A stretch of DNA of 63,530 nucleotides, the filler included, from Phoronis australis (Eukaryota; Animalia; Phoronida): NCBI GenBank assembly GCA_002633005.1. It is 5 parts of 5 records of this genome, joined end to end, with 100 filler letters (N's around TTAATTAATTAA, not from the genome) between each part and the next. Parts side by side here need not be neighbours in the genome. Positions count along the whole stretch, not along the records: positions 27,218 to 52,544 come from NMRA01000161.1; 4 more parts are not named here. The stretch is one strand, 5' to 3'. Both the position numbers and the translations under genes were made by a program. The notes under the pieces were generated by a model, which saw only the letters and a program-made list of their open reading frames with translations, did not search any database and had not been told where the DNA came from. Below are positions 24,573-61,206 of this stretch, piece after piece (positions within the stretch are counted from its first letter, which is position 1; each line of letters begins with the position of its first letter).

Positions 24573-25388
24573 AGGCGAAGGCAACCTTTTTTCATGTCAT
24601 TTTGAGCTAAAATAAGGTTGGTTGGTTATCCTAGACATATTTTCCACTTAATTACAGCTTTTCGTAATTTTGTTAATTACTCGTCCGCTACTCAGGAAGT
24701 GACGTTTTAGGAGGCAGGCATTTCGCCACACGACACTATGTAAGCAGTTTGGGTCAGTGCTCAGGTCACCAAGGCCAGTGGGAGTGTGTCGCGGGACACT
24801 CTGGCAAGTTGGACAGTTGTTCCTCTGTCCGTGGTATGCCGGAGGTCCACTTAACCGTGTCCAGTAGTGGCTTGGCCTCGTCGAACTCTAAACAGCACGA
24901 GCATTCCATGGAGGTAGGCATAACAACGCACACAGTGCATTTGCACCAAGATGTGTCACCACGTCTGTCCTCAGTAGCCGCCTCGTTTCTCTCAACAGCT
25001 GCCTGTGCCTGTGCGTACTCTGCCTCGTTATACANNNNNNNNNNNNNNNNNNNNNNNNNNNNNNNNNNNNNNNNNNNNNNNNNNNNNNNNNNNNNNNNNN
25101 NNNNNNNNNNNNNNNNNNNNNNNNNNNNNNNNNNNNNNNNNNNNNNNNNNNNNNNNNNNNNNNNNNNNNNNNNNNNNNNNNNNNNNNNNNNNNNNNNNNN
25201 NNNNNNNNNNNNNNNAAAAAGAGTGAAGCAGGAGGGGAAACGCTTGCCTCCTAAAACGTCACTTCCGGAATAGAGGACGAGTAATTAATAAAATTGCGAA
25301 AAGCTGTAATTAAGTGGAAAATATGTCTAGGATAACCAACCAACCTTATTTTAGCTCAAAATGACATGAAAAAAGGTTGCCTTCGCCT
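24573..25388 (-). mobile_element. Kolobok-like non-autonomous DNA transposon, ~145-bp TIRs, TTAA TSD, internal Cys-rich coding remnant
   Basis: TTAA|aggcgaaggcaacc...ggttgccttcgcct|TTAA; long near-perfect TIRs; minus strand reads WCKCTVCVVMPTSMECSCCLE; spans gap 25035-25215. Confidence 0.85.
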
Positions 25389-26079
25389 TTAAGACATCGT
25401 AAGATAGTCTTTGCTGGTGTTCTAATTTTCAAAACTGATCTACTGATGGGGTTGTTTTTCATGCTTCTGTTATGAAATTGGTGACTTTATGTATTTTATC
25501 GTTTTTGTTATTTATGGCACATCTCACTGGTTTACTCCCAAATCATTCCTTTCCAATGTTTTTGTACGTAAAACATCGACCTACACGATGTGCTGGAGTT
25601 TCAGCTTTGATCCAGCATTTCAAACAGCAAGACGCTGTAGCTCGACCTGCTGTGGTGTTATGTGTTTGCAGGTTATAGTGACCCGTATGCTTCTACATTG
25701 CTACATGCAGTTGAGATCTTATCAGAATCAAGCGCTTGGTAATAAAACTGGAAGTTACCCAGATCACCATCTGTTTTGTTCTTCTGCAATCACTTCTGTT
25801 AGTTTAAGATGTCTTCCATTTGTTCGAATAGGAAGTACCTTATTCCTGAAACGCAGGAGGCATAAGGGACGGATAATATTGGTTCAAGTCCTTGGAATTC
25901 AAATTCTGAACCAAGTGTGGCTAATCGATCAGCTGCCTCATTACCCTGGGTGCCAAAACATTCAGAGGTACATTCAACTGTGACACGATAATATTTACCT
26001 TACATTTTTTAAATTAGGAAATCAGAAACATTGCTGCACATTATGTAATTTCACAGCAGTGTTTTTAAAAGGCCGCTGA

Positions 26080-29095: not shown

Positions 29096-29225
29096 ATGAA
29101 AATGAGGCTAAGCGAGGTTTGCTTTGTGCTATTTGTGGTCCTGGGGTGTATATCAGCCTACACACTACGAGACCTGTTCCATGCTCTTGAAGACAAAGAG
29201 AACGAAAAGAAAAGCCAAGCAGAAG
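29096..29225 (+). CDS. Secreted peptide precursor copy 1, coding exon 1 (signal peptide MKMRLSEVCFVLFVVLGCISA plus YTLRDLFHALEDKENEKKSQAE)
   Basis: Acceptor ttgcAG at 29080-29081; ATG at 29096; basic n-region, hydrophobic core and I-S-A cleavage site; phase-1 donor G/GTACT at 29226; conserved in copy 2. Confidence 0.85.
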
Positions 29226-30153
29226 GTACTTGTAACAAAAGTCTGTGACCCTCCAAGCATTTACCAAGCGTTCCTTGATTGGATTCGACATTATAAATGG
29301 CGTACCAGATGCATTGGAAATTTTGTAATGCTCATCACACTAATAGTAACTTCTATGGTTACTTTGTACTCCCAGTTTTACTCGTACTAGTGTAGAACAG
29401 TATTGAAGTAAGGTTACGTAGAGTCATATCGACAAGTCTATGTATTTAGCCATATACCTGTAAAACTATAGATTTACAGTTAGTAAATATACAGTATGTA
29501 CATTTTGAAAGTAGAAAGCCTGTACAATTTGATTTTCAGTTTTACAACAATCTCCCATTAACTGGGCCACAAATAAAATTAAGCAAAAAAAGAAATGTAC
29601 ATTTGTAATAAATTAACGGCAACAAAAACCTAACCAAATCTGGTTTGATATATGTCCAAGAAGATATCTCAAAAAACCTGTTGCAGTTTTCGAAATTATT
29701 TCGTTTTCGTTTCATGCAACTCTAGATTTTTTTCAGAAAATTCATAAAAATCACATCTTTTAATAGATGCTCAAGCAAAACTGAAACACTTGAAAATTCT
29801 TTTATAAAACAGTGCGTGAAGCCAAGTACATGAAGGTTTCCTGTGAATTCAATAGACCATTTCTGAGTTGTGAAATTAGCATTGGATACTTTTCCATGAT
29901 CCTACAATTAACCTTAAAAAAATCTTATAACTGAATCCCATCACTAAGCTGCTCGTTTTGAAAACTCGTTTTCGCTAACAGAAATGTAATGATTATGGAA
30001 GATGTAACTAACAGTAACATGCCTGTACCTTCACACCAAAAGGAATGTTGAATCAATCAATCAAGCAAGCAAATACTTAGAAGTTCAACATAGTAATTGC
30101 CTGTACAAGTGCCTGAAAACTTTCAGCCACTGCTCTTCATTTTGTACTTTCAG

Positions 30154-30698
30154 CCGAGGTCAAGAAAGACACTATTCCAGAACAATCAAATGTTAGTGGT
30201 AAGAATGACAATAGAGAAAAAGAACTTCTAGAAAAATTGTTGAAGTTACTTGAAGACAGGAAGAAGGCAAAACAAGTTCTGATCAACAACAATGACTTGA
30301 AGAAAACTGTGACTGAGAAAAAGACAGTGACGCAACAGAAAGCGCTTAACAACAGGGACCAGTACTTTTCACCAAGTGGTTTAACCGAGCGAAACTTCGG
30401 ACCGCAGGGCGTTCCACAAGTCCGAAATTTTGGGCCCCAGGGAGGTCCTGACCCTCAGCTGAGGAACTTCGGACCTCAAGGCGTACCCCAACAAGGATCG
30501 AATTTACAGCAGAAGCGAAATTTCGGAATGTATGGGCGTGAGCTGCAGAACCTGAAAAGTAATGCGAACAGGGCATTTGGACCATCTGGCCTGGACTATA
30601 ATCAAAGATATTTAGACGCGTATGACAGAGACTATTTAAGAACTATGATTGATGAAGAAATAGAGAGATTGTTCTTTAGATCTAAGAATCGGCAATAG
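30154..30698 (+). CDS. Secreted peptide precursor copy 1, coding exon 2 (pro-region, R-NFGPQG x3, KR-NFGMY-G-R, R-AFGPSG); 224-aa precursor
   Basis: Acceptor tactttcAG at 30152-30153 joins exon 1 in phase 1 (G+CC = Ala) and runs in frame into ORF 30237..30698; TAG stop; AATAAA about 75 nt downstream. Confidence 0.85.
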
Positions 30699-30771
30699 AG
30701 AGCATTACACAGCTAAGAATTCCAAGAAATTGAATTAAAATTAACAATCAAAACACAAAAATTATTTTTGT

Positions 30772-30782
30772 AATAAAATAAA
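30772..30782 (+). promoter_or_regulatory. Overlapping polyadenylation signals (AATAAAATAAA) of precursor copy 1
   Basis: Two overlapping AATAAA motifs downstream of the stop codon; conserved in copy 2 at 50804-50814. Confidence 0.6.
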
Positions 30783-32930
30783 GCTAAGTTCTTTCAAGAC
30801 CATAGCGAATTGGACGCAGTCCAGTACTTTTGGAATTAATGTATTTTTCTTTACAAGCTTGGCTTTGAGGCATGTTACCATTTTATATGCTTTAGCCAGA
30901 TCTCAGAGATGTCTGCTGTCTAACAGATCAAACTAAGAGCAGGCAGCTTTATGTCTAAACCTGACTTTCCGGAGGTCAACTTTATCAGAGGATGCATGAA
31001 AAACAGTACAATGTAGATAAGTTCAAAGTGATCCATTCAGGATGTGAGGCTTGATCACTGTTTCACACTTTCGCCATAGAAATGTATGAGTGCAGAGGTC
31101 AGACGTCAAGGCAATGAACTAGACAGATAGTAAGATTCTTTTAACTGAACATTATATAGTGTCAGTTATCGATTATCTTAAAGCAGAAAAGCCCATGTAT
31201 TAGGTAGACCAATTCTTACATTTTACCTAGTGTTGGGTAGTAGTCACTTATAGGGGTCTAGCATTTGAAAAATGGTTTTCTTCTCTGAATTAAGCAGGCA
31301 CCAAACTGGTTCTCAAAATGCAGACTCCTGTAAGTGGCTTGATGCCCACTGTTGTATATTTCTGACTCATGGGCGTGTATTCTCCTCAGAAACCTTTTTG
31401 GTGATTCCTAGATTTAAGACCAATTAATGAGTATTTTTCAGTTATTTTGCAGAAAATAATTCCCTACTAGCCAGTTCTTCAAAGAGCAGCTTTGTGTATT
31501 GCAAGCAATCAAAATGTTATCATGACAGTTGTATGCCAGTGTTGTATAAAACCATGTTACTAGCATAGTAGAATTTTGTGTATTCTAGCTGAAAACGTGA
31601 CAAAATAAAATTTCACTTGCCTGTCAAATTGTGCACTGAATAGGTGAAATATTACCATGACATGAAGTTTCAATGCTGTGTCAAATTACAGTTACAATTT
31701 TTTCAATTTGGGATACAATATGTCGTAAAATTTAAATTTCGTTTGTCAACTTTCTGAACAACTGTAACTAACTTTTTTGGAAATTTCACTTTTTTATAGT
31801 TTGATCTGTATGGCATATCTTTTGGCGCATATTTGGTGAAATTTGTAGCATAATTATGTGGCGATGTATTTAACTTCTCAAAAATAGAAACATGGATATA
31901 TTTAGCAAATATTATGTCCAAGTTGAAGAATTTTTACCAGACTTCAAAGAAATACTGATTTGCCAGTGCTTTAAGGTTACCACCAACCTTATTCACAAAA
32001 AATGGCCACAAGTGTCTAGACAAATACCATATCTTCATTCTCAGGGAACTTCAAATACAAAGTATACACTGCGTGGCGAAAAAAAAATTAAAAGAACCAC
32101 CTTCGAACTGAACAACCACATGCATATTTGTTTACTTATTCGAGGTCAAAGGTTAAAGGGCTTTCAATCAAATCGAATCTCCCGCCAGGTACAGAACAGC
32201 TTCGTATACCCTCAGGCCTTTTATTCACAAAATCGCCATAACATTGAGTCAACGAGCTGTACTTATGGTGCGGGGGAAAACAAAGACACAACATAGTTTT
32301 GGTCCTATTAGAGTTGGGAGTTGTGCGTCTACATGCATATGACCGTTGGCGTTGAGAACGAATGCTATGTTTGCCTGATTCTTCTGTGGTCACCAACAAC
32401 TTGCGAAAAGAGATAAATCCTCACCCTAATTCCTTCATTCAATTAATAAATTGACACTTCAATGTTTCGATCTCATGCTAACGACATGCTTTAACCACCG
32501 ATTCGATTTTTGTTATCCATTTCTTACTTGGTTCCGTACCAGTCTCCAAGCACGTGAGGTGTACAGGCTAAGTGTATAACAATGAACTGTGCCCTATTTA
32601 TATAAAGTAGGCCAAAACGTCATAAACAATAGTAAGAATTAGCTGGGAAACGGTACATTTTAATGATAATTAAGTTAATTTTGCACTGCAAAATGAGTAG
32701 ACAATGCGAGTGAATGTTGAAATAGCGAGCACATTTAAGGCTTCCATAGGTTATGTGTACCGACAACAAGTTTTCACCGATTAATTAACCGAAGATTTTC
32801 ACTTGTCCCAGTTTAATCGGCTTTTTCTCGGCTTCGGTAAATCGACTTTATTTGAACTTAGGAACACAAGTTCTCGAAAACGGCTCGGCATTTCGCTGAA
32901 ACTTTCCAAATTTAATATTTAGTCATCAGT

Positions 32931-37544: not shown

Positions 37545-39137
37545 AGGAGAATGCCACCCAAAAAACAACCTATTTTGTATCAATTTAGATCGAGTGGTTC
37601 TACTCGATAACGACACGTTCAGTTGTGTTACCTGACACCTGACGGTAGACAGAGGTGTTGAACTTATGCAATGACGTAATTGGTTTCACACGCAGTCTGT
37701 TCAGCAGTTCACAACACGGGTTACTGGTGTCAGCTTATCGCTTGAATTCGTTTAACACCAATAAATCATCAAACAGCGATGTAAAACCCTTAAAAATACA
37801 TCGAGTTCTTATAAGAAGTGTTGTTTTATTTCGCTGTTACGGATTTACTGGTATTTGGACCGTAGCCTACAAAGTTCGGCAGGCCAATTTACCAAGGTCC
37901 GTAGCAGCAGTTTGGTGTCTGTTCGGAGATAAATTCGAAGTATTCTTCCGTGAAATAAAGACAGGAGAACCTAACTGTGTTTTTTATACTTGTATTTTTG
38001 AGTTCTAAACACAAAAAACGCTTGTTATCCCCGGCCAGTGGCTCGGAACCCGATCAGACCCGTCGCGGCCGCCGAGACTGGTACGAACATAAACCAGCTA
38101 GTGGAAACTTAACCTCCAGTCACGAAAAGACTATAATAATTGAGCCAAAAAAATAATGTGCACATATATTATTTTTGTGAATTAGCCACGAAACTGAAAA
38201 CCTACTTACTTGTCAGGGGCACTCACTGGTTGTAAAAATGATTTGAATAATGTTTTTGTATTTCAAAATAAAGATTCCCCTAACATGTGACCATAGCATG
38301 TAAAATCGAGTGTTTCACAACAGCTTTCTGTCAGCAAACACTGAATTAGCATGCGCTCAGACGGCCTCGGTGCCCGGTCAATTGCCTTTGTTGCCGGCAT
38401 CAAAAGCCGGTAACGCAGTGGTTAATTCATTGCTGGGTTCTCAAATCATTTGCAATCACGAGCACTCAAGGAATAACAAATTGTATCTAATGAGACAGAC
38501 TTTGTTCCAGTTTCAGGATGAGAATGATTCATTTTGAAACAGAATGCAAAATAATAAACGTTTACATGGCAACTCGCCCGGCGCCAATCCCGACTTAGTC
38601 AATAGCTCATCTGACAAAGACTTCATGGGTCGGATCGTTATTCACAGGCTATCAGTTCGAACCGGAATATACTGATCAAGAAATACTAGAGAGGCGCCGT
38701 GAACATGCACAGGCAATGGAACATATGGATAGTTCTTTGGTAAGCCGGAATTCGTCAGAGAAATCACTGTCGAGGAATTATGCCGGCCACAGACATGGAG
38801 ATGTTTCACAGCCTCATACTTGCTATTAACAGTGTACCTTTCGTTCTTCACTACCACGAGCCACTTCCTAAGCATTTCGGGCTCTAGAGGAAGTCGAAAA
38901 AACGATATACACGCCTTTTCGCCTCTTCATAGTTCGGACAAGCAGGAATGATGCACCGCAATATAGCGGCATTCACTCTGCAGACGAACCACTGATGTCG
39001 CTGCAGCATTTCTCACCTTCCTCACAGGTTAATGCGACACCTCTCGGCAAGGTGAGGTCGACCGTATAAGAGGCGATGTGTATATAGACCAATTAACATG
39101 GTAAAACAAGACTAATTAAATCGGGTGGCATTCTCCT
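37545..39137 (-). mobile_element. Kolobok-like DNA transposon derivative (1.6 kb), TTAA TSD, 15-bp perfect TIR, degenerate THAP domain
   Basis: TTAA|aggagaatgccaccc...gggtggcattctcct|TTAA; minus strand gives RCIIPACPN, then after a frameshift ISFFRLPLEPEMLRKWLVVVK...HVCGRH (THAP C2CH). Confidence 0.85.
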
Positions 39138-41027
39138 TTAATGTTCATGGCAAATTTAATATGTTTCATACTTAACTTTCATGTTGTAATTTTCGGAAGG
39201 ATCATCCGAATTCCGTGTTAGTGTTGCCAAACTGTATGACATATTCTCTATGCTGAAATGCATACAATTTTTCAACATTTTTCTCAAAGCTTAAGTGATG
39301 GTGAACAGCCAACAACAAACTTTTATTATTTAATCGCATTCATTCACAGAAGTTTCTGGGACACAATAATTGCTTTTATTTCATATTGCAAACAAACTTG
39401 CAATAGCTCACTAATGTGAGTTTCCATGTGATGTCACTGGAAGGAGGGCAAAACCTTCCATATTGTTCTTGTTTTGCCCTTAGTCTTTGCTACACACGCG
39501 AAATCTTACTAGAGTTCTTATGGTGAATTTTACGCTTAAAACATTAACACGATTTATGGGATGATAGATGGTTCGTGGAATAACTGTGAATGGACGAAGA
39601 AAATGTGAACTTGTTATGTTGTGCGAAGCTGTGAACGGACTGAAATTGGAACTCAACTCGGTCTAGACCTGAATGCCCCAGGCATACAGGGGCGATAGTA
39701 TATCCCCATAAAGTTACTCATTTCAAAATACAGCTTATAAAATCCACTGAAACATGTATATGTGCACATGGAGTTATAATTAGCACATACCCTGTTTCTG
39801 GATACAATTTAGTCGACAAATAACTTAAACATATCCATGAAAACCTCATGGTTCGCTCAAGTTTCTCTCATCGGGTGCCACTTTGAGGAAGTTACATCAA
39901 ATCACCCCTGTTGATGAACAAAAAGTCTAAGAGACACAAATCTTACAAATTTCACTTGATCTTTTCCCCATGCTATTGTGCAAGTGTCATGCGCCACTCA
40001 GGTCTCGCGCTTCCCTCAGTCTCATGCTAGCCTTTGCCTCATGTACTCGCGTGACTCAGCTGAAATACCTTGTGGTTATCGTGCGTGCGGTCAAACTTAA
40101 CAGTAACCAAAAAGTGGAGTTGGAATTCTTCGCCAAAGTCACGTGAATTCCCGTAACTATGCTTCATCGAAGACATGTTTAAAAGCAGAAACAATCACTG
40201 AAGAAAGTAAGCGCCTTATTAGGAGATATTTTTAGGTGTAGAACGTATTTTTGATGCGGTGAAAACTTAATCAGTGAGCGAATTTCGCCTACCGCCCGTT
40301 TAAAATACACGGGACAAAATTAGTACAGAACGCGATGGAACGTATTGCAGTGCGAATCTGAATTTCATTTGTCATAACAGCTTGTTTCACACTAAAAGAT
40401 TAAAAACTCAAAGTAAACAACAGAATACATTCTGCTACCGTATCGGGCAAATAGCCAAACGACAAGCTTTTGCCCCACTTCCGGTGACGTTACACTTAAG
40501 TCTCACATAATCTCACGTTATTTCTATAAACTCGCAAAAAAACTTTGCAACTGGGTGTTAGGCGTCACTATGATGTCAGAAATTGTTGAAGTTTGTAATT
40601 TATTCTCATGTGGAGAATTTCTCGCTTATACTGGTTATCTGATTCCCTAAACCCCACACAACTTTTATGATGCCTACTAAGCACGCTCTTTGTATTGATG
40701 TAGATCTGAGCTAATGAAGTGGAAAGGTAATACCTATCACTACTTTCTTAACAACGGTGGTTGTTATTACATCCAAATTCCACAGAGTAAAAGCTGCAAT
40801 ATGGAGAGCAGTTTTAACTTGGTACATCAAGAGACTAAAAAGTAAATTTGCATTGATCTTGGCAAAGGGTCACTTCCCAAAGGAACGTTGGTTTTAAATA
40901 GGTTTCATACCCGTTTTCATCACTTTATTTTAATACTCCTGTCTAGTTATTTTTTCTTACCAGTTAGGGTTGTTGTCTTTTTATTTTGTGTTTAAACAAA
41001 ATATCAGAACAACTTAGAAGTTAGTTA

Positions 41028-44682: not shown

Positions 44683-45747
44683 TTAAGACTAATTTGTTTG
44701 CAAAGAGTAAATTTCTTGATAAAAATGAAGAATAAGTAAATATCGAAAGGACACAGATCTGTTCTAGTGTGCCCACTCCTCTGCAGGTTGAAAACTGCCT
44801 AATCTGTGAGCAAATGCTGGGCAATGTGGGGTTATCTCAAGGCCGACACATTCACAGGGGAATAAATTTTTTGTAGACAGGATACTTCAAAAATGTGATC
44901 GGCTGGATATAAATCATATGCCTTGGACTCAATCACGGCCTGGGTAAATTCATTATGCTCAAGGGGGTGTAAGGTTGTGACACCAACAGCTAAAGACGTG
45001 CATCACTCGTTAGGGCTCAAATGATGTTCCCACACAAATTAATTTTAGACACTGATGCACCAAATTGCTATGTCTTAGACATAGATCTGTATGCTCTTGC
45101 AAAAGAACAACAGGAAGTTGGCAACTGTCCTCCCAGCATGCACCTAGCCACATCTTGGTCTGCTCTACAGTTAGGTTCTTTTTAGCATTTTGATTGGGCA
45201 CTGACGGGATGAGATAAGGCCAGAGGTACAAGTCAAAGACCATTCACTCACTCACCACACTGGGATGACATGGTCTGCTTCCCAACACGCAGATATTAAG
45301 CTGTATTTAAGGCAATGTGAACTTAAGCATTTTCAAAAACTTTTTTTCAGATATCCATGTTGAGTGTATGGTCTAGATGCACCGGTGGTTAAAGGGTTTG
45401 TGATCCATCTATAGGGGACAGTTTGCCTTCAATTCAACTGACATTTAGAGGTAAGTTGTTTTACATTCATTTTGCAGTTTCCCTACTGTTTTAACACAAT
45501 TTTTGAATTGTTCTCATTTCTACCAAAGTCTTCTAGACAAATTTCAAAAAGTAATGGTAGCTTGGCATACTAACTTTTACTTATATCATTTCAATGGTGT
45601 ACTAAATTTCACTAAAGCAACTACAGTAACTTTTTCATGGCAGCATTACGAAAGCTGTTCTAATTGTATCTAGGCACGCAGCGTTATTCCCGAAATAGAG
45701 TATTTCACAAATATTTAAAATACAACCAGTGCACTACTTGATTTTTG

Positions 45748-45949: not shown

Positions 45950-47747
45950 AAGCACAGATTTTGGCATATTCAAACAATGTTGCATGTGTCTAACTATGAA
46001 AAATACGTCATTTCGGATATACCGTATGTGCATTCCATGAAATACTTCATCATATGAAATCTACACCATTCTTTATATAAATTCTGAGGCACAATGTATT
46101 GGAAGAATATATTATTATAAGTAACATAACATGAGCGGCCTCCTTGGTGGATCCTTTTTATTAATTAACATTGCCATGTATTTTGTATGTGGTTTCTTCA
46201 ACATACTTAGCTAATTCCACCTGTTTAAGCCTTGCTTATGACAGTTATGTCATCAGTTCTGTGAAGCAATTTGATTATTAACCTCCATTTCAATATTATG
46301 AATAGTGGCGTCACATATCCTTTGGTAGTCATCTGATCTATAAGGAAAGACAAGCATCTAACATAAGGAAACTTTTCAGCTGTCTTCTTAAGTTTTAGTA
46401 GGCGAAAGTCCTGCTGTTGCTCTTATTCTTAATACTGTAATTACAGTAAAACTTGTCCAGTTTGGTAGTCTTTAACTCTCAAGCGTTTTTCTGAGATGTT
46501 GATACTTTCGATATTCTTCTTAGTAACAAAAGTAAAATTCTATTATGGTAAGGAATAATATGAGACCGATTTTATGAGAGTAAAATGACTAATTCAAAAT
46601 TCCTTATTTAGTCAGGTGAATTATTAGGGCAGCTCTAACAAAGGCAAGTGTCTGTCTGGATGTTGCCACATTGCTGCGTTTTGATGCCAACAACAGTTCG
46701 CACTTGTAAATCTGTATTTTCAAGGAATAGATGAGTTTCCATACTATTCGACACAATGGCTGATGTTAATGGTGACAATGTTCGCATTAAGCATCCACGT
46801 TTTATGGCATAAATTATAACACTACCAAAAGTCTACATAACTGCCATGTTTTCCTTCATTTTAAAATGTGGAGAAGGATAATTTTCATCCTGGCTGTTGT
46901 TATCAAGTTTGAGTGTCTAACAATTGGTCATAAACAATATTTTTATTATAGTTGATCACAGGCAAATCGTCATTATCACATACTAGATAGAAATATTTTT
47001 AATTTTAGGGAAATTACTTAAAATGCTAAAACTTTCAGCAGTCGCTTTGGTGAGTACAAGGAGTAAAGGTCAACCAGAGATGCCCGCTGAGTTAATCTCT
47101 GTGAAATCAGTCCAATAACCATAGATTATGAAACAAAAACCTGTTCCTATTAGGATAATAATTTCACAATTTGATCTTCACTGTCTGACACCTCTTTCTA
47201 ACCACTTATCTGTCTAGAATGTCGAAAAATATGGTTTCGAACTGGAGAATATAAGGCGTTTCAAACGATGTAGAATTTAGACCATCGTTGTGAACAAAGA
47301 ACTCAAGAGGTAACAAGAATCAAAGCCAAACTTTCTACTTGGCCTTAGCAGGAACTGTCGAGCTGGAATATAAGTTACCTGATTTCTGGTGCAGCAGGAC
47401 ACCAGGAGAACTGATTTCAAGGATCACCTGAAGGCGTCAAATTTTTTTAAAAATTCAGCATTCAACAGCCAGTTGCCTTGACAACATGGGGAATATCGCG
47501 ACTTTAAGCTACATTTTGCCCTGTTTAGCTGGTTGAGAAACGAAAATCGAATTAGTCTTTTTACTTTCATAAAATCAGTCTTGTAATACACCTTGCCATG
47601 ATAAAATTCTCTTTCCATTACATACAATAACATCGTGACTGAAGAAAACACTTCAGGGTTTATTGGGGTTGGCCAACCCTTAAACTGCAAATGAAAATGT
47701 GACTTGGGCTAGTAATGGAAATATCATCTTATCAGCTACAGCTTTAA

Positions 47748-49068
47748 AGTCCTTGTTGCAAACTGCCCATGTGGTTCTAGTATCCGAAAATACTTACTAC
47801 ATAAATTCTTATTTTCGACACCCTTTCTTTATATTCTTTTCGCCTTTCTTGCCAAACGCGATTTTTTAACAGTATTTGACCCTTCTCTCTGAGCGTATGA
47901 TTACCGGTTGTCATCGGTTATTTCCGTACCCACATTTCCGGCTCATCAGTTCAGGAACTTGTCCTGAACGCCGCCATTTTTTCCTTGTAACTGAATGTGC
48001 TATGGCTTGCTNNNNNNNNNNNNNNNNNNNNNNNNNNNNNNNNNNNNNNNNNNNNNNNNNNNNNNNNNNNNNNNNNNNNNNNNNNNNNNNNNNNNNNNNN
48101 NNNNNNNNNNNNNNNNNNNNNNNNNNNNNNNNNNNNNNNNNNNNNNNNNNNNNNNNNNNNNNNNNNNNNNNNNNNNNNNNNNNNNNNNNNNNNNNNNNNN
48201 NNNNNNNNNNNNNNNNNNNNNNNNNNNNNNNNNNNNNNNNNNNNNNNNNNNNNNNNNNNNNNNNNNNNNNNNNNNNNNNNNNNNNNNNNNNNNNNNNNNN
48301 NNNNNNNNNNNNNNNNNNNNNNNNNNNNNNNNNNNNNNNNNNNNNNNNNNNNNNNNNNNNNNNNNNNNNNNNNNNNNNNNNNNNNNNNNNNNNNNNNNNN
48401 NNNNNNNNNNNNNNNNNNNNNNNNNNNNNNNNNNNNNNNNNNNNNNNNNNNNNNNNNNNNNNNNNNNNNNNNNNNNNNNNNNNNNNNNNNNNNNNNNNNN
48501 NNNNNNNNNNNNNNNNNNNNNNNNNNNNNNNNNNNNNNNNNNNNNNNNNNNNNNNNNNNNNNNNNNNNNNNNNNNNNNNNNNNNNNNNNNNNNNNNNNNN
48601 NNNNNNNNNNNNNNNNNNNNNNNNNNNNNNNNNNNNNNNNNNNNNNNNNNNNNNNNNNNNNNNNNNNNNNNNNNNNNNNNNNNNNNNNNNNNNNNNNNNN
48701 NNNNNNNNNNNNNNNNNNNNNNNNNNNNNNNNNNNNNNNNNNNNNNNNNNNNNNNNNNNNNNNNNNNNNNNNNNNNNNNNNNNNNNNNNNNNNNNNNNNN
48801 NNNNNNNCCCCGTTTGCTGGCTGGTAACAGTACAGGCACTGCTCCAGTCGCACTGACGGCGTTTTCTCGGCCTGGGTTCCTGAATGAATTGTACTTCCGG
48901 GTTCGCGGCAAGTTCAAAATGGCGGTGTTTCTTCGGGTGCGAATCGTGAGTGGCGCGTTCATTTAAACTGTTTTCGAGTACGGATCGTGTATTAGTTATG
49001 GGGTAGGTACTTCTTGGATCCTTATAACATCTTCTAACCATGTAATAAGGGTTAACAACGCGTGAGAC
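47748..49068. mobile_element. Insertion specific to duplicate copy 2 (probable DNA transposon; mostly gap)
   Basis: Copy 1 has the empty site gctttaa/gttccagaca at ~29000. Degenerate subterminal inverted similarity: gttctagtatccgaaaatacttactacataa versus the reverse complement of ttatggggtaggtacttcttggatccttataac. Confidence 0.6.
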
Positions 49069-49162
49069 AAGTTCCAGACAGTTATATTTTTGATCATTAT
49101 ATTAATGTCCAGTTTGATGATGGTTTTTGTCAGTATCACATTTGATTGCAGACATCACAAAG

Positions 49163-49292
49163 ATGAAAATGAGGCTAAGTGAGGTTTGCTTTGTGCTATT
49201 TCTGGTCCTGGGGTGTATATCAGCCTACACACTACGAGACTTGTTCCAAGCTCTTGAAGACAAAGAGAACGAAAAGAAAAGCCAAGCAGAAG
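49163..49292 (+). CDS. Secreted peptide precursor copy 2, coding exon 1 (MKMRLSEVCFVLFLVLGCISA plus YTLRDLFQALEDKENEKKSQAE)
   Basis: Paralogue of 29096-29225 with 4 substitutions by manual alignment; same acceptor, ATG and phase-1 donor. Confidence 0.85.
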
Positions 49293-50230
49293 GTACTTGC
49301 AACAAAAGTCTGAGACCCTCCCAAGCATTTACCAGACGTTCCATGACTGGATTCGACATTATAAATGGTGTACCAGCTGCATTGGAAATTTTGTAATCCA
49401 CATCACACTAATAGTTACTTCTATGATTATTTTTGTACTCTCAATTTTCTCATACTAGTGTAGAACAATAGTGAAGTAAGGTTACGTAGGGCCACATCGA
49501 CACGTCTGTGTCATAGCAAAATACCTGTAAAACTATAGATTTCAAGTTAGTAAACATACAGTGTGTACATTTTGAAAGTAGAAAGCCTGTACAATTTGAT
49601 TTTCAATTTTACAGGAATCTCCCATTAATTGGGCCACATCACCAAGCCTTTTAAATAAAATTAAACAAAGAAAGAAATGTACATCTGTAACAAATTAACG
49701 GTAACAAAAACATAACCGAAATCTGGTTTGATATAAATGTCCAAGATGATACCTTGAAAAACCTGTTACAGTTTTCGAAATTATTTCGTTTTCGTTTCAT
49801 ACAACTCTGGATTTTTTCAGAAAATTCATAAAAATCACGTCTATTAATAGACGCTCAAGCAAAACTGAAACATTTGAAAATTCCTTTATAAAACAGTGCA
49901 CAAAGCATAGTACATGAAGGATTCCTAGGAGTTCAATCAACCATTTCCGAGTTGTGATTTTACCATTGGATACTTTCCCATGATCCTACAAAATCTTAAA
50001 AAATCTTATAACTGAATCCCATCACTAAGCTGCTCCTTTTGAAAACTCGTTTTCGCTAACAGAAATGTAATGATTATGGAAGATGTAACTTACAGTAACA
50101 TGCCTTTACCTTCACACCAAAAGGAATGTTGAATCAATCAATCAAGCAAATACTTAGAAGTTCAACATAGTAATTGCCTGTACAAGTGCTTGAAAACTTT
50201 CAGCCACTGCTCTTCATTTTGTACTTTCAG

Positions 50231-50730
50231 CCGAGGTCAAGAAAGACAAAATTCCAGAACAATCAAATGCTAGTGGTAAGAATGACAGTAGAGAAAAAGA
50301 ACTTCTAGAAAAATTGTTGAAGTTACTTGAAGACAGGAAGAAGGCAAAACAAGTTCTGATCAACAACAATGACTTGAAGAAAACTGTGACTGAGAAAAAA
50401 ACAGTGACGCAACAGAAAGCGCTTAACAACAGGGACCAGTACTTTTCACCAAGTCAGGACGTTCCGCAAGTCCGAAATTTTGGGTACTACCCATGGAAGT
50501 CAAGACCTCAAGGCGTACCCCAAAAAGGATCGAATTTACACCAGAAGCGAAATTGGGGAAAGTATGGGCGTGAGCTGCAGAACCTGAAAAGTAATGCGAA
50601 CAGGGCATTCGGACCATCTGGCCTGGACTATAATCAAAGATATTTAGATGCGTATGACAGAGAGTATTTAAGAACTATGATTTATGAAGAAATAGAGAGA
50701 TTGTTCTTTAGATCTAAGAATCGGCAATAG
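50231..50730 (+). CDS. Secreted peptide precursor copy 2, coding exon 2 (R-NFGYYPWKSR, KR-NWGKY-G-R, R-AFGPSG); 209-aa precursor
   Basis: Acceptor tactttcAG at 50229-50230; in frame with ORF 50314..50730; all indels relative to copy 1 preserve the frame. Confidence 0.85.
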
Positions 50731-50803
50731 AGAGCATTACACAGCTAAGAATTCCAAGAAATTGAATTAAAATTAACAATAAAAACACAAAAATTATTTT
50801 TGT

Positions 50804-50814
50804 AATAAAATAAA
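50804..50814 (+). promoter_or_regulatory. Polyadenylation signals of precursor copy 2
   Basis: AATAAAATAAA, same position relative to the stop codon as in copy 1. Confidence 0.6.
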
Positions 50815-51050
50815 GCTAAGTTCTTTCAAGACCATAGCGAATTGGACACAGTCCAGTACTTTTGGAATTAATGTATTTTTCTTTACAAGCTTGGCTTTGA
50901 GGCATGTTACCAGTTTATATGCTTTAGCCAGATCTCAGAGATGTCTGCTGTCTAACAGATCAAACTAAGAGCAGGCAGCTTTATGTCTAAACCTGACTTT
51001 CCGGACGTCAACTTTATCAGAGGATGCACGAAAAACAGTACAATGTAGAT

Positions 51051-52544
51051 ACCGTAAACGTTCGGGTTAACGCCCTGGGCGGTTAAATTGGCAAACACAA
51101 AAAATCGGGGGTGGGCAGTTAACCAGACATGGGCGCTTTAACGTGAAATTTCAAGAAATCTAGGGTGGGCAGTTAACCGAACATGGGCGCTTATTACGAC
51201 AGGCAACCGCCCTGGGCGGTTAATCTTACATCGTACTCGGAACGCGTAGCACTTTTCAAAGAGCGTTATCGTCACGTCGCCAGATGATGGGAAAAATGTC
51301 ATAACAGCGGATGATCCCAACAAAGATTCTCTTGCCCTCAGATTAGTTATTCGCTATTAAATTTACAGAATTGCTGAGTAATAATAGCCCCGTGGTGTCC
51401 TGCGGTCTTGTTACTTTGCCCTCTAGAGCACAGACGACCAGTGACCACGCAGCCTCCACTAGGATTACAACTATTTCAAGATGTGACCTTGTTAAAGTGC
51501 ACGCGTGCAAGCTTCACGTGTTGCAGAGGTCACAGCAGACATCAAATTTATGGTTACAGTCTCGTACTGAGCTGCCAAGTTCATAGTCTGAGAGCAGTTT
51601 TAAAATTAGTAGTAATAAAAGTTTGAAAAACTTAATTCAAATGTTTTTTGTGTTTATGATGTTTACAGTCGACACTCCGTGACTCAATGACATTTAGTTC
51701 TGCGGCTAGCTGTTTTATCTCGACCGCCCGGCATTGCTCAGTTGCCGTTGCGCCAAACATGCTCGGCAAAGAACTAGGCCTAAGACAAGAATCGGGGTTA
51801 AGCGGCCGTGAGCCACTCGTCAATCAAGCATAAAATTTCGAGCCACGACATACATACGTGATAAAACGCCACAAAACAGCGATGTTTCAATTCATTCTTA
51901 AACGATCACCTTACCAAACTTCGTGGTGGAAAAACATTTATTTTTCATGCAAGATGTCCAGATTATCCTATTTATATCACTTGCAATATCTCACTGCGGC
52001 ACTGTTCGGTCCCGCAGTTAGCGCGCAATGTCTCAGTCGGCTGACAATCGTGACTTGGAAATGCCGTCAAGTCATATAACGGCCTCTTTCAATATGCATG
52101 TCGTTTTTATGGCCAAAGACATGCTATGAACATTCCCACTAAATAAAATTGGTTCTAACCCCGGTGTTTAAGGTAAACGGCGGGGTATGGAAAATTGAAC
52201 TAGACCGTATTTATCCACCTTGGCTGAGACGCGCTCGGCTCATGCTCAAAGGGATGCCGCCAAGCTGCTCTATTCATCGAGTCACGAGCGAGGATAATTG
52301 ACTTCGCTCATGCGGATATGATCAGCTGATTACAGTCTAGCCTAACAACTGTACTTTTTATGGAGAGAATTTTACGTAGTTTTTACTGTAATATTTGAAA
52401 AGAGGAGCGAAAACAAATACGAATACAACTTTGAATTTTTCAAATCGGCCCAGGATAAGAGATTTTGCAACACAGAAACACTCACGATTACTTTCATTCG
52501 GCGCGCACGAATACAAAAATATAGGACCCAAGTTAGGATTGTAT
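51051..52544. mobile_element. TA-flanked pogo/Tc1-type element related to 41028-42548, cut by a gap
   Basis: Starts TA|ccgtaaacgttcgggttaacgccctgggc with repeated gggc(a/g)gttaa and gggcgctt motifs; segment 52120-52544 recurs at ~54944-55620. Confidence 0.55.
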
Positions 52545-52661
52545 NNNNNNNNNNNNNNNNNNNNNNNNNNNNNNNNNNNNNNNNNNNNTTAATTAATTAA
52601 NNNNNNNNNNNNNNNNNNNNNNNNNNNNNNNNNNNNNNNNNNNNATTAGTTTTATTGTACC

Positions 52662-53409
52662 TAAAGCCGGTTACGCAGTGATTTATTCATTGCTGGCTTC
52701 TCAAATTATTTGCACTCACGAACACTCCAAAGGCATTACAAATTGCATCTAATGAGACAGACTTTGTTTCAGTTTTATGTAAGTATTGGTTAGGGTGAGA
52801 ATAATTCATTTTGAAACAGAACGCTCAGTAATAAACACCAACATGGCAACTCGCAATCCCGACTTAGGACGAGCTAGAGCTCACCAGTCCCGACTTTGCA
52901 GGTGAATCGTTAAGTTTTACAGGCTATCAATTCGAACAGGAATACAATGATGAAGAAATACTAGAGAGGCTCCGTGAACGAGCTCAGACAACGGAACGTA
53001 TGGAGTTATTTGGTAAGCCGGCATTCGTGAGGCACTGTCGACGTCTGCAGGCCACAGACACGGAGATGTTTCACGGCCTCGGACTTGCAATTTACAGCGT
53101 GCATTTCATTCTTCACTACCAAGAGCCACTTCCTAAGCATTTCGGACTCTCGAGGAAGTAAAAAAACGATATACCCGCTTTCCTGGCAGCTGCTTAGTTC
53201 GGACAAGCGGGAACGATGCACCGCAACATAGCGGCATTCACTCTGCATATGAACCACTGACGTCGCTAGCGTCGTTTCTCACCTTCCTCACAGGTTAACG
53301 CGACACCTCTTGGCAAGGTAAGGTTGACCGTAAGCGAGGCGATGTGGATATAGACCGATTAAGATGGCAAAAGGCAAAAAAGACTAATTAAATCGGGTGG
53401 CATTCTCCT
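52662..53409 (-). mobile_element. Second, truncated copy of the THAP-bearing Kolobok-like element
   Basis: Aligns to ~38402-39137; ends gggtggcattctcct|TTAA; minus strand gives MLRCIVPACPN*...GISFF...LPRESEMLRKW...RVCG. Confidence 0.8.
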
Positions 53410-55238
53410 TTAAGATTGTGAAAACATTGATCTTACATGGGAAAAAAGATTAATGTACATAACCAGGTTTTTAAATAAATAACGAAATACTCTGAAAAAG
53501 ACTAGTTTTCTGGGTTTTGCTCATTTTGAATTCATTTGTTATGCAAATTTCATTGTTTAGAATTATTTCAAAATCTTTTGGAGCCAAAGAAACATGTTTA
53601 CTAAACCAAAGTAATTCTTGAAGTGTTTTGTCGTTTTCAAGGTAATAAGTTGCTCTCCTTTTAAAACATCACTTGTTAAACTTAGCTTCAGGGGCAAAAA
53701 TGTCCTGTCACAAGTCGATGGTGAATTTTTCATTTTTTGTTGTTCTTGTTTGTGCAAAATATAATAATTTGTGGTTTGGTGTCTATGCCATGTTGTTAAC
53801 CTACTTGTAAAGTACTCTTCACCTTGTTTTAAGAACACTGTGAGCTATGGATTCCCAAATATAGGTGCCTAAACTTGCCATTTTGTGTGGCCTGAAATTT
53901 CTGGGTGCCGTTTGATGAAAAAAAGCCATTTTTGAGGCTCTAAAATTCAAATAACTCGAGAACCGCCAAACCGATTTGAAACATTCAAAAAGTTGTATAA
54001 ACTACATGTCTAAAGCTATCATTTAACACTCTTTTCAAGTGTTTCTGATGAAATTTGTATTTGGGTTCGCTCACCCTATTTGCCCCCATAGATGATAGAT
54101 AAAGGCATCGCCTTACATAATTTAAGCAACCCTTAAAATTAAACCAGTGCACAAGTAATCTGTGAATAGTTTTTAAGAAATGCAGTACGAATTATTTGCA
54201 TAAAGCTGAACAGATGTACCGTATCTTTAAGCTTTGCTCTTGGAGTTTGGGCATCTCTTCCTGGGTTCGCCATCTTCGTATTTGCACTGTTATGCTTCTT
54301 CAGGCGTAGAAGAACCAAGTTTTTTTTTGCAGCGCCCTCATGTGACGAACGCGACCCGGAATAGCCCGAGCCAGGGGACTGTGGAACGTGTTGAGATCAT
54401 TGACTAAATTGAGAAAAGTAAAACAGTTATTCAGACCCGTAGGAAGGACAGACTTATTGGGGGACACAAACCAATTTGACTTCGTCATCCTACCTCCTTG
54501 TTATCGCCACCTCTCACCCATTCTCTGGATAGGCCTATCACCAGTACTGGCCGGCCCTCCACGTCCGCCAGAGTTGGGGGGCCATAGGCCTACCGGGGAT
54601 GCAGCCATCAGGATTTGAATAATCATGAACCAACAAAGTTTTACGGAGAGTAAGAATGGGTCTAGGGCCAGCGTACTGACTGGTGGTACGGAAGCCGAGT
54701 GAAGTAACTACATGTATAGCTGGGCTCCAACACCGTGACGGTGTATTCACACCTCATTCCTATGCTCTGAGCTAGTCGAAAGTCAAGGTTTGTTTTATAA
54801 TCCACTCGGGAAAACTTCGTTTTATTATGGCCAGTCTTTGAAGTATTTTATTTTTTTGGAAAGGTGAGGTCCCGAGACTGGTATGAGTGCCTTTGTGGCC
54901 GTTTCAGAATCCCTGAAACACAGCCGGTAGTCCTGCCAGTTGCCATGCTATAAACATTCCCACTTCAAATAAGATTGGCCCAAACCCCGCCTATCAGGGT
55001 AAAACTAGGTGGCCGGGGTTTGGCAGATTGAACTAGACCGTATTTATCCACCTTTGGCTGAGTCGCGCTCGGCTCACGATCAAAGGGATCCCGCGAGTCA
55101 CGAGCGAGGCCTTGGCTTCAATGCGGATATGATCAGCTGATTACAATCTAGTGTAGCAGACTGTAGTTTTTATGGAGAGAGTTTTACGTAGTTTTTACTG
55201 TAATATTTGAAAAGAGTAGCGAAAACAAATGTGAGTAC

Positions 55239-56429: not shown

Positions 56430-57256
56430 CAATTTCATAGATAGTTCCCAAGACTCTCTGTCATATATAGCAGTATGTTTGTATCAAAAATGATCAGCCA
56501 ACCGCTGACTGGTAGATCACTAAACTGAAACATAAATATGTAAATCTTATACCGGCATGGAAATTAGGTCACTTGATGTGGCCAATAGGTGGCGTGCTGG
56601 TCAGATAAATGTTTGCGAAATTAAAACATATGTGTCCTGAATGCAAAAAAAAAACACGTTTAAATGCCATGTCTGATAAACGTCACTGATAATGCGTGCA
56701 TGAGCCCTTTGTAGAAAATTCTCCGCATTACTTATGCTGAAGGCAAAGTCACGTTACTATCAAACAGCTTCCGTTTCTCGTAACGATTTAAACAAATTTC
56801 TTTACTATAAACACTGCCATATTCGCTTTCGTTATACGGATGTTCAATTACCTTTTCGAACAGTGTTTGCAATATATCGCCATGTATAACAAGCAAATTA
56901 CGTAATAATACCCCAAAGCGGCGTTCGCGACGAATTTGCTAGGTAACAGGATAAAGTGATTGATTGTCTACTACTTGGGGAATTATCATAACTTCTGTAC
57001 AGTTCATCTGAACTGAATTGAAATGACTCGCCCAACCGTGATAGTTAACGGCTATACAAAATGACACACAGCCAGTAATTCCTGCAGAATGGGATTACAT
57101 GTAGATTTACCTTGTCTCACTCGAGACATCACGCGTCAGGAGGGTGGGGGGGGGGGNNNNNNNNNNNNNNNNNNNNNNNNNNNNNNNNNNNNNNNNNNNN
57201 TTAATTAATTAANNNNNNNNNNNNNNNNNNNNNNNNNNNNNNNNNNNNNNNNNNNN

Positions 57257-58550: not shown

Positions 58551-61206
58551 ACTAAATATCAGAAGTATGTTAGTGATGTGGAGAAATTAGAGTAAGACAA
58601 CTTTTTGTTTTTGTAGCCAAACAGTGAAATTTCCATGCATCCTGGTACTTTTCTGGCACTTAACATGTCCCTGGAGTTTTTCTTAAGATAATTAAAAACT
58701 CTTCTCGATTTTTGGCTCATAAGTTTCGTGAAACCATATTTGTGCACATCTGGGTATGAGTCACGCCACCAGCAAAAATTTTCGTTGGAACATCTGCTTA
58801 CACACACCTTCTTAGCATACGAAAGAGTGTGGTGTGTATACAGGGGCTTAGACAACTACCAAACATTGAAGAGCATAAGGAGCACCCACGGGGCGTAAAA
58901 TCAGATGATCGCAACAGCCTCAAGCTGTTTAAGAATGAAGACCTGTACTATTAGTACGGAAATAAAAATGTGTTCTGTCTCGTTACGCGAAAAACTGGCG
59001 AACGATGGTGCTCTCAGGTCATAGTCTATTACTAAAAGCAACAATAAACAATTAAGTATCACTTTATTAAGCTGAATCACGTTGACAACAATTGAAAAAC
59101 GTCAAATGTATCAGGAAACAAATCATCTGAAAACACTTCCACGAAACCAAAACACTCTGTAAGCCTACACCGTGGTGAAAAGATATGCAGTAGTAGTTCC
59201 TAGAGGGACCAGTCTTATATTCTGATTTCGTAATAATCAGAAGATTACAAGATGTACACTGAGAGTACACAAAAACTCTGGCCTCGTCCGTCACGAGACC
59301 AAAAGTACACCTATGTGCTTATTATCCTTATAAAAATAGTCGATCTGTAGCGGGACCAAACAGTACTGGTTGAGATAAATAGTTTTACAAAGCACACTTT
59401 GGTAAAAAGCATCACAAGACTAGTTCGCTGAGGGACCAGAAGTACACTGAAACTCGATATCTACACAAATCAAGCTGGCCTGGTCCGTCGTGAGACATAA
59501 AGCGTACTTTGCAAAAAATTTTGAATTGAAACTTCTCTCTAGACACGTTTTAATCCCCAGTGGTTGCTCGTACGTGTAATTTACACATCTGGTGGTCAAC
59601 TGCTCCGAGAGGTTGTCAAGGAAGGGTTTTCGCACCGTTCTGTAGTACTCACTAGAAGAAATAAGTATTGGGTACAGATTTAACTACGCACTGTGTGAAA
59701 AAAGATTTTGGATATGAAGCAGATAGACTCATGTGGAAATACAAACCAGAATCAGTTTCTGTGCACTCGTAGACCCTCTGGTGTACTGGGTAAATTTGGC
59801 ATGTCTAAAAATAATTTCTATTTCGTTTTCATTGTACACAAGCATAAAAAAACCGACATTATTACAAACTGTGAATAATTATAACTTATTACCTGGGTGT
59901 TTCACCAGGAACTTTGGTCCTATCTTCCTGCTGTCTAGACTGCCGAGGATTCTGTATATCGGATCCAATGGTTTGCTTGTCTTAGAACCATAATTGTAAT
60001 CTGCGAGAGAAAGCTTGCTTCACCACTTAGTTTTTTGTGAAATGGAAAGACATGGATTGCAAGTTTACTTATTAAATACTAGTCCACGAGAGCACCAACC
60101 ATGAGCGGCAAGGTGGGGGTCAGCCGATTTTCACCAAATTTGGCACATATGTAGTCCTATGGGATTTATAAACAGCGGTAAAATATTTCCTCAAAATATT
60201 TTGTTTTTCTAAAGTTAAAGGTTCAAACACATTTTACGGTTTCGCAGCCATGTTTTCACGGTATAAAAACTGTCCAGTTCTAACTGTTCATATTTTTCCT
60301 TGAATGAAAGCTATTGATTTATTATTCGCTTGACATTATTTAGTGGTGCCTATAGATTGTTACACAGATGTCTTGAAACACGATTCCGATTTATCACCCT
60401 CATTTAGTAGTTTTACTACACTGCCCCCCGTTATGCCATTTTGAGGTTGTGTTCAGTACACTGCTGTACCAAATCTGCCCCCACTGTTATGAGAATGAAA
60501 CTTAGCCAAAATGCTGACAAAACATGTTAATTTCATTGCATAAAATAAAAACTTTGTCAGCCAGTTTATTAGTTATACATTTTGGCAACCTCAAATGTCT
60601 ACTAAAATGAGAAATTTTCATGTATCTGAGATCGATGCGTGAGCACCGTAAAATCCGATTGTCCTTCATATTTTTCGATATTTTTCAACAAGTTAGTTCC
60701 TCCTGAATGTTTTGAACGTTTTACTACTTATCACTTTGGGCTATAGTACCCCTAAATACCATACATGGCTCCATTTTGTAAAAAGCCGATTGTGTCCTCC
60801 ACAGTGAACAGGGTTAGACATGAACTCGACAAAGGTTATTTTGATTTACAGTNNNNNNNNNNNNNNNNNNNNNNNNNNNNNNNNNNNNNNNNNNNNTTAA
60901 TTAATTAANNNNNNNNNNNNNNNNNNNNNNNNNNNNNNNNNNNNNNNNNNNNTTAAGATCACACCAGAATCCCTGGTAAACCCCCCCCCCAGCATTGCTG
61001 TAACATATCATCTTGAACGTCATTCTGTTGAAAGTATTTTATATTTAGCTGTTTTCCTTAAAGTCCTAGTTTGTGTTTGTTGTTTTTCAGTGAATTTGTG
61101 GAGCTCCGTCGAAGTCAGGAAGTCGTTGTGAAAAATGTGGAGTTGATGAAGATCCCAGTCTTCCGCGACATTGAGAAAGGTTTGCACTGTGCTGCAAAGG
61201 TTATTA

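What the first reader, a model, noticed from the sequence alone, without database searches (positions are those of the whole stretch)
49163..50730. Paralogue with rewritten mature peptides on a near-identical scaffold
Seen in sequence: copy 2 (209 aa) differs from copy 1 by only about a dozen substitutions (manual count) across the signal peptide, pro-region and C-terminal tail. The peptide cassette is remodelled in three ways: a 27-nt in-frame deletion (GLTERNFGP); replacement of PQGGPDPQLRNFG by unrelated YYPWKSR; and NFGMY changed to NWGKY by three nucleotide changes, all non-synonymous (ttc>tgg, atg>aag). The KR and G-R processing sites are retained and every indel keeps the frame. Established: conserved signal/pro regions with hypervariable mature peptides are typical of conopeptides, frog-skin peptides, antimicrobial peptides and reproductive signals. 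Inference: diversifying selection on the mature products, which also supports these short peptides being the functional output.
Basis: partly seen in the sequence, partly recalled or inferred. Interest (0 to 1): 0.88.

Follow-up and report, generated by a model that had tools for sequence, protein, structure and literature searches.

The report
Expressed peptide-precursor duplicate with variable cassette
An animal carries two neighbouring, transcribed copies of a gene with no known relatives that likely makes short secreted peptides, and the second copy has a rewritten peptide stretch that differs between samples, likely because gene conversion kept the rest of the gene alike while this stretch drifted, with diversifying selection possible but not shown.

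Summary
Copy 2 (209 aa) differs from copy 1 (224 aa, 20 kb upstream) by 13 substitutions outside the cassette, two in-frame length changes, and NFGMY>NWGKY. RNA reads show the gene spliced and reads with copy-2 letters present. They also show a third class (NYGKY, with HYLLGNSR) and a copy-2-like form lacking 12 nt.

Three corrections:
(1) YYPWKSR is not unrelated. It descends in frame from the last NFG repeat, as the third class shows (15/21 and 16/24 nt, shuffle p about 1e-4 and 2e-4).
(2) The near-identical scaffold is probably not recent duplication. The 5' intron is 10% diverged, while a 1.1-kb tract around exon 2 is 1.6% diverged at non-coding sites, as gene conversion would leave.
(3) Cassette pN exceeds flank pN (p=0.012), but pN/pS is about 1 (0.96 for the third class) and never significantly above 1.

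Best reading: an orphan peptide precursor whose second copy lost constraint on its repeats while keeping KR-N[FWY]G[MK]Y-GR. No homologue, organism name, peptide detection or receptor was found. A new member of a known kind; interest moderate.

The parts
45419..45450 (+). 3' end of a non-coding first exon upstream of copy 2 (its start not mapped), donor GT at 45451
   Evidence: Loose ends before 49150 in 4 of 4 runs match here at 28-29 of 30 nt (counted by eye); donor read
46419..47747 (+). Upstream part of the duplicated block (first intron), homologous to 27629-29000
   Evidence: blastn 88%; 101 mismatches in 1319 aligned sites
47748..49068 (.). About 1.3-kb insertion in copy 2's first intron, absent from copy 1; holds a 796-N gap
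49163..49292 (+). Copy 2 coding exon 1: predicted signal peptide (about aa 1-21) and start of pro-region
   Evidence: hydrophobic core aa 9-19, mean Kyte-Doolittle 3.14; acceptor AG at 49150-51
49293..50230 (+). 938-nt intron; 5' part 10.2% and last 233 aligned nt 1.7% diverged from copy 1
   Evidence: splice seen in 41, 38, 89 reads; divergence
50231..50730 (+). Copy 2 coding exon 2: pro-region, cassette, tail, stop
50455..50571 (+). Copy 2 cassette (aa 119-157); 27-nt deletion junction at 50454/50455
50485..50505 (+). YYPWKSR: eroded, shortened descendant of the last NFG repeat
   Evidence: read depth 10, 12, 18 at 50483, with a 12-nt deletion in 0, 0 and 15 of them
50545..50571 (+). KR-NWGKY-GR: predicted amidated pentapeptide with both sites intact
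   Evidence: NWG letters in 2/47, 10/42, 4/101 reads
49998..51051 (+). Low-divergence tract (matches 29917-31019), inferred gene-conversion tract; AATAAA at 50778 and 50804
   Evidence: 9/554 non-coding mismatches against 70/685, Fisher p=1e-10
29096..29225 (+). Copy 1 coding exon 1
30154..30698 (+). Copy 1 coding exon 2
30378..30539 (+). Copy 1 cassette: three R-NFGPQG repeats and KR-NFGMY-GR
   Evidence: majority form in all 3 RNA runs

Best explanation
This is a tandem pair of spliced, transcribed genes for an orphan protein that is likely a secreted peptide precursor, in which copy 2's flanks were likely overwritten by gene conversion from copy 1 while its cassette escaped, lost constraint on the NFG repeats and kept a changed, predicted amidated pentapeptide. 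Shown: gene structure, splicing, expression of F-M, W-K and Y-K forms of the pentapeptide, patchy divergence, cassette pN/pS near 1 against 0.14-0.37 outside. Inferred: the signal peptide routes the protein to secretion; a convertase cuts at KR and at G-R; Gly gives the amide, yielding NFGMY-amide from copy 1 and NWGKY- or NYGKY-amide from the second locus; these act as signalling ligands with shifted specificity or potency. Inferred also: the duplication is about as old as the 10% intron divergence, and the second locus is polymorphic for several cassettes.
For: Splice 49290>50229 in 41, 38, 89 reads, all exon reads on one strand. Hydrophobic core only at aa 9-19, next best window 0.41; KR dibasic; G-R has a basic residue at -8, and in copy 2 also at -4 (rule from passages of PMC6756747). 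Divergence 70/685 in the 5' intron against 4/233 + 5/321 around exon 2. The RNA Y-K class has pS 0.13-0.17 against copy 1 both inside and outside the cassette, i.e. the older age, with pN 0.162 inside and 0.019 outside. It shares cassette changes with copy 2 (P131 codon, F149S, G150R, M169K) but differs from both window copies at 30344, 30350, 30362, 30543, 30552, so window copy 2 is a mosaic. Position 167 stays aromatic in all three classes, though only 1 of 8 one-step and 2 of 24 two-step codon changes give W or Y (post hoc). Copy 1's cassette is nearly unchanged in the majority reads (V154A in 8/30, 9/28, 89/92; no indel listed).
Against: No peptide, tissue or receptor evidence. All three R|NFG sites of copy 1 fail the monobasic rule. 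No homologue gives an outgroup, so direction and conversion cannot be polarised; unequal crossing-over between old haplotypes would also give patchy divergence. The 7-8-codon segment is far more diverged (12/21 and 9/24 nt) than 10% predicts (p=2e-7, 4e-4, window chosen post hoc), which relaxation alone explains poorly. The Y-K class is assembled from unphased read counts, and in run X8 its upstream markers (10-17 reads) outnumber its NYG reads (4/42). The RNA is from other samples, of unknown ploidy and pooling.
Confidence: 0.5

Rival explanations
1. Positive diversifying or balancing selection rewrites the whole cassette and protects it from conversion (the opsin-type 'peak of divergence'), as in toxins, defence peptides or gamete signals.
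For: Cassette pN 0.082 against 0.019 outside (p=0.012) and against local non-coding 0.016 (p=0.004); with the segment 0.174 against 0.102 (p=0.046). At least three cassette forms in three RNA runs, every indel in frame (27, 18, 15, 12 nt). The Y-K class gains an RR site by two adjacent changes. The pattern is described as a selection signature in PMC3924837 and PMC2588116 (passages).
Against: pN/pS 0.96 and 0.87; N against S not significant; without the segment, substitutions are not clustered (7 of 21 in 100 of 800 nt, p=0.28). PMC3924837 also says large indels and many substitutions disrupt pairing, so an island can form without selection.
Confidence: 0.27
2. Copy 2 is a redundant duplicate decaying neutrally: repeat slippage made the indels, the indels blocked conversion, and its peptides do nothing.
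For: pN/pS near 1 in the cassette; two of three R-NFG repeats are lost; copy-2 letters are a minority of reads (7/52, 9/53, 0/104 at 50249); codon-multiple repeat units tend to give in-frame indels (inference).
Against: Four indels all in frame, no stop in any class seen; KR, N, G, Y, G-R and an aromatic second residue are kept in all three; Y-K class flanks have pN/pS 0.14; it is spliced and expressed.
Confidence: 0.13
3. The protein is not cut into peptides; it is a secreted low-complexity protein with a variable repeat region.
For: Most R|NFG sites fail the cleavage rule; no match to any peptide family.
Against: A canonical KR-peptide-G-R unit is kept through all classes; every repeat starts directly after Arg.
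Confidence: 0.06
4. The two copies are alleles of one very polymorphic locus placed in tandem by the assembler.
Against: Copy 1's exons and copy 2's first exon and upstream block lie in one gap-free contig (27218-48011) in tandem order; flanks beyond the block do not align; runs X7 and X8 each show about four haplotype classes, too many for one diploid locus if the samples are single animals (unknown).
Confidence: 0.04

Closest known systems
Bilaterian multi-copy neuropeptide / peptide-hormone precursors
   Same: Signal peptide, basic cleavage sites, Gly for amidation, repeated short units (general features from passages of PMC9793003).
   Different: No sequence match to any family (Pfam); repeats are aligned at their N-termini and bounded by single Arg that fail the usual rule; the mature part varies between copies and samples, which conserved neuropeptides usually do not (own knowledge).
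Conotoxin precursors (conserved signal, less conserved pro-region, hypervariable mature peptide)
   Same: Change is concentrated in the mature region (organisation described in passages of PMC11568388).
   Different: No cysteine outside the signal peptide; only two copies in the window; pN/pS about 1; moderate read depth; the conserved scaffold includes intron and 3' UTR, pointing to conversion.
Duplicates under gene conversion with a divergence peak (human red/green opsins; Drosophila block Pre28)
   Same: Tandem copies about 20 kb apart, homogenised flanks, a short divergent coding island (passages of PMC3924837 and PMC2588116).
   Different: Here the island holds two indels that could themselves stop conversion, and no orthologue is available for the type-C/type-N site test.
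Pedal peptide/orcokinin-type neuropeptides
   Same: Multi-copy, Phe near the N-terminus.
   Different: No Asp-(Pro/Thr)-Leu core and no aromatic residue near the C-terminus of the repeats (definition in PMC9793003 section 30).
NG peptides (NGFFFamide type)
   Same: Amidated pentapeptide starting with Asn after KR (size and motif recalled).
   Different: Asn-aromatic-Gly, not Asn-Gly; no neurophysin domain.

Membership tests
Secreted peptide (neuropeptide-type) precursor | N-terminal signal peptide | tested here: met
   Hydrophobicity heuristic only, no SignalP: core aa 9-19, mean KD 3.14-3.17, basic N-terminus
Secreted peptide (neuropeptide-type) precursor | Peptide between a dibasic site and Gly plus basic residue | tested here: met
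   KR-NFGMY-GR and KR-NWGKY-GR; final Arg has a basic residue at -8 (both) and -4 (copy 2)
Secreted peptide (neuropeptide-type) precursor | Repeats bounded by sites that fit the (K/R)Xm(K/R) rule | tested here: not met
   0 of 3 R|NFG sites in copy 1 and 0 of 1 in copy 2
Secreted peptide (neuropeptide-type) precursor | Spliced transcript | tested here: met
   3 of 3 raw RNA runs and 1 contig set
Secreted peptide (neuropeptide-type) precursor | Processed peptides detected; neuronal or endocrine expression; receptor | not testable with these tools
   No proteomics, tissue labels or receptor assay
Conotoxin-like hypervariable precursors | Conserved signal/pro, variable mature region | tested here: met
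   pN 0.019 outside, 0.082-0.174 inside
Conotoxin-like hypervariable precursors | dN/dS above 1 in the mature region | tested here: inconclusive
   Point values 0.87-1.9, none significantly above 1; few sequences
Conotoxin-like hypervariable precursors | Cysteine framework | tested here: not met
   2 Cys, both in the signal peptide
Conotoxin-like hypervariable precursors | Venom or skin gland expression | not testable with these tools
   Tissue not given
Pedal peptide/orcokinin | Phe near the N-terminus | tested here: met
   NFG repeats (definition)
Pedal peptide/orcokinin | Asp-(Pro/Thr)-Leu core and aromatic residue near the C-terminus | tested here: not met
   Closest is DPQL in one repeat; repeats end QV, QL, QQ
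NG peptides | N-terminal Asn-Gly motif (recalled) and, in many, a neurophysin domain | tested here: not met
   Asn-Phe/Trp/Tyr-Gly; no Cys-rich domain, no Pfam match
Divergence peak under gene conversion | Non-coding flanks more alike than the rest of the duplicated block | tested here: met
   9/554 against 70/685, p=1e-10
Divergence peak under gene conversion | Orthologue-based site patterns and a simulation excluding neutral causes | not testable with these tools
   No orthologue found

The most novel reading that the evidence does not exclude
An undescribed family of amidated pentapeptide signals, N[FWY]G[MK]Y-amide, in which one locus holds the ancestral ligand while a neighbouring locus segregates several functional cassettes kept by diversifying or balancing selection against ongoing gene conversion: a polymorphic recognition signal (mate, self/non-self or defence) with allelic ligand variation inside one species.
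Probability: 0.2. Interest if true: 0.75.

Novelty: new member of a known kind. Interest (0 to 1): 0.45.

Why it matters
It adds an expressed, orphan peptide precursor with three natural variants of one predicted amidated pentapeptide that can be synthesised and compared directly. It is a compact case of how a duplicate can change its product while conversion resets the rest of the gene. It also warns that 'hypervariable mature peptide on a near-identical scaffold' can come from homogenisation of the scaffold rather than acceleration of the peptide. If the second-locus cassettes are selected alleles, it would be a rare within-species ligand polymorphism.

Tried and rejected
Homologue searches with copy 1 exon 2 (180 aa): 0 of 499 candidates at E<=0.1; 0 of 1619 longer candidates at E<=1; 1 hit among 1.84 billion representatives, P0001, E=5e-5, a single-member hypothetical repeat protein matching only the NFGP repeat, rejected as a repeat look-alike; 0 of 332 pattern matches confirmed in metagenome contigs; 3 DNA-pattern loci, none with a tblastn match better than E=0.57; PDB 1 hit at E=0.46; Pfam 0 families for the three precursor ORFs; Rfam 0 in the window. 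No indexed RNA holder was on record; expression rests on the lays. Naming the organism failed: 144 further ORFs of the 207 of at least 62 aa were scanned in Pfam, and one ankyrin exon gave only a 45%-identical Wolbachia protein. My first idea that YYPWKS is a +1 frameshift reading of the PQGGP DNA was dropped: free-gap score p=0.059 against the far better in-frame route through the third class. Not in print as far as searched: 0 papers; 3 unrelated papers by listing; 3 unrelated by listing; 0; supplements of PMC8557429 and PMC6188537, one file each, 0 hits for five motifs; figures and other supplements were not seen and could hold the precursor. Earlier scan findings: none. No fold was predicted: no alignment depth.

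Full report
Observation. The window is animal-like DNA (about 38% G+C, intron-rich, with scaffold gaps). Two copies of one gene lie on the + strand 20 kb apart: copy 1 CDS 29096-29225 + 30154-30698 (224 aa) and copy 2 49163-49292 + 50231-50730 (209 aa). No third copy is in the window. Outside the cassette the copies differ at 13 nucleotides in 12 of 170 codons. G129D, Q157K, Q162H and one silent change also lie in the cassette.

Real duplicate. The duplicated block runs 27629-31019 against 46419-51051, with a 1.3-kb insertion in copy 2. Copy 1's exons and copy 2's non-coding first exon (ends 45450) lie in one gap-free contig in tandem order, and flanks beyond the block do not align. Copy 1's own first exon is not in the window; it may lie in the gap at 27118-27217 (inference). 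One DNA run holds a 212-nt contig identical to copy 1's cassette; it may be the assembly's source and is not independent.

Expression. In 3 of 3 raw RNA runs (18-19% of each read) the 938-nt GT..AG intron is skipped in 41, 38 and 89 reads, and exon reads lie on one strand; a contig set shows the same joint. Copy-1-like reads dominate. Copy-2 letters: at 50249, 7/52, 9/53 and 0/104 reads lack the copy-1 letter; at 50556, 6/46, 14/38 and 14/91; on the copy-1 reference the W codon's third letter is counted directly in 2/47, 10/42, 4/101. Depth inside NFGYYPW is 10, 12, 18. So the refutation 'copy 2 not transcribed' fails, with the limit that the RNA is from other samples.

More variants. One search shows a third class: F167Y in 14/47, 4/42, 0/102 reads, with M169K, a run of upstream changes in 7-17 reads, and a loose end (6 and 10 reads, agreement 0.99-1) that reads HYLLGNSRF in frame. 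I assigned rows to this 'Y-K' class by matching counts; it is not phased, and in X8 the counts match poorly. Run X9 has a copy-2-like form lacking 12 nt (15/18 reads) with S134L (16/16), which would read NFGKLR. One search hid 41 further rows of substitutions and 54 loose ends. A two-locus model, one conserved and one polymorphic, fits; three or more loci also fit.

The segment is not unrelated. With one in-frame deletion, the Y-K segment matches copy 1 at 16/24 nt (shuffle p=2e-4) and copy 2 at 15/21 (p=1e-4); copy 1 to copy 2 directly gives 10/21 (p=0.06). NFG became NSR and then KSR. The segment arose by deletion plus many point changes.

The scaffold is patchy. The 5' intron differs at 70/685 sites (10.2%) and the far upstream block at 101/1319 (7.7%), but the last 233 intron sites and 321 downstream sites differ at 9/554 (1.6%; p=1e-10). 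The Y-K class has pS 0.13 outside and 0.17 inside the cassette against copy 1, near the older value. It shares cassette changes with copy 2, yet copy 2 equals copy 1 at five flanking sites where Y-K differs. Window copy 2 is thus a mosaic, most simply by gene conversion (inference; unequal crossing-over between old haplotypes is not excluded). PMC3924837 and PMC2588116 (passages only) describe such a peak as a selection signature; the former also says indels and many substitutions disrupt the pairing that conversion needs.

Selection. Window pair: outside pN 0.019, pS 0.051; cassette without the segment pN 0.082 (6 changes), pS 0.044 (1); with it 0.174 and 0.126. Cassette pN exceeds outside pN (p=0.012) and local non-coding divergence (p=0.004), but not the 5' intron (p=0.69; with the segment p=0.046); N against S is not significant. 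Y-K against copy 1: pN/pS 0.96 inside, 0.14 outside; contrast p=0.049, or 0.15 without the segment. A scan for clustering without the segment gives p=0.28. For selection: the segment's 9/24 and 12/21 differences far exceed 10% (hand counts, post hoc, next to an indel); four indels are all in frame; position 167 stays aromatic although 1 of 8 one-step and 2 of 24 two-step changes would keep it so. Result: constraint differs sharply between cassette and flank, and positive selection is possible but not shown.

How it likely works. A hydrophobic core at aa 9-19 marks a signal peptide (heuristic). KR and the Gly-Arg after the pentapeptide fit the (K/R)Xm(K/R) rule (PMC6756747, passages); M>K adds a basic residue at -4. 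All R|NFG sites fail the rule, and KSR is followed by Pro, which usually resists cleavage (recalled). The firmest predicted products are NFGMY-, NWGKY- and NYGKY-amide; NFGYYPWK is doubtful. Cleavage, amidation, tissue and receptor are all inferred.

Comparison. No homologue or family was found and the organism was not identified. It works like a neuropeptide or peptide-hormone precursor, but fails pedal peptide/orcokinin (PMC9793003 section 30) and NG-peptide features (motif recalled; neurophysin link from a reference title). It resembles conotoxin precursors in layout only (PMC11568388, passages): no cysteine framework, no shown dN/dS above 1. Motif searches of the paper library found nothing relevant; some searches were seen as listings only.

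Verdict. Observation confirmed; interpretation partly supported. A new member of a known kind: an orphan, expressed peptide precursor pair with a variable cassette under a known evolutionary pattern. Interest 0.45; the bolder reading, a selected within-species ligand polymorphism, has probability 0.2.

Noticed in passing
window 896-23632 (+): Scattered short exons of an ankyrin-repeat gene (Pfam Ank at 896, 3543, 6163, 10610, 23360; motif also at 11480), about one repeat per exon, ending just upstream of copy 1.
   Followed up: partly
window 27118-27628: Copy 1's non-coding first exon is missing from the window; its block begins after a scaffold gap and 411 nt of unrelated sequence, although copy-1-type reads carry that exon.
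   Followed up: partly
window 38403-39141 and 52663-53413: Two 80%-identical copies of an element with a THAP-domain fragment (38645-38926, minus strand), probably a DNA transposon relic.
   Followed up: no
window 18483-20538: Tandem array with alternating units of about 433 and 447 nt (880-nt higher-order period).
   Followed up: no
window 24569-25392: 159-nt inverted repeat, 95% complementary, around a 181-N gap, with a Cys-rich ORF fragment; may be an assembly artefact or a transposon relic.
   Followed up: no
window 27118-27217, 52545-52644, 57157-57256, 60853-60952: Four 100-nt scaffold linkers: 44 N, a 12-nt all-frame stop spacer, 44 N.
   Followed up: no
window 30612-30620 (RNA run X9): A minority class in X9 (9 reads) diverges in the C-terminal tail (L197I and a loose end), suggesting a further allele or paralogue.
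   Followed up: no
window 30391-30403 (RNA runs X7, X8): The Y-K class loses the first R|NFG site (R123Q) and gains an Arg-Arg pair (G126R, P127R) followed by Gln, a possible new dibasic site.
   Followed up: partly
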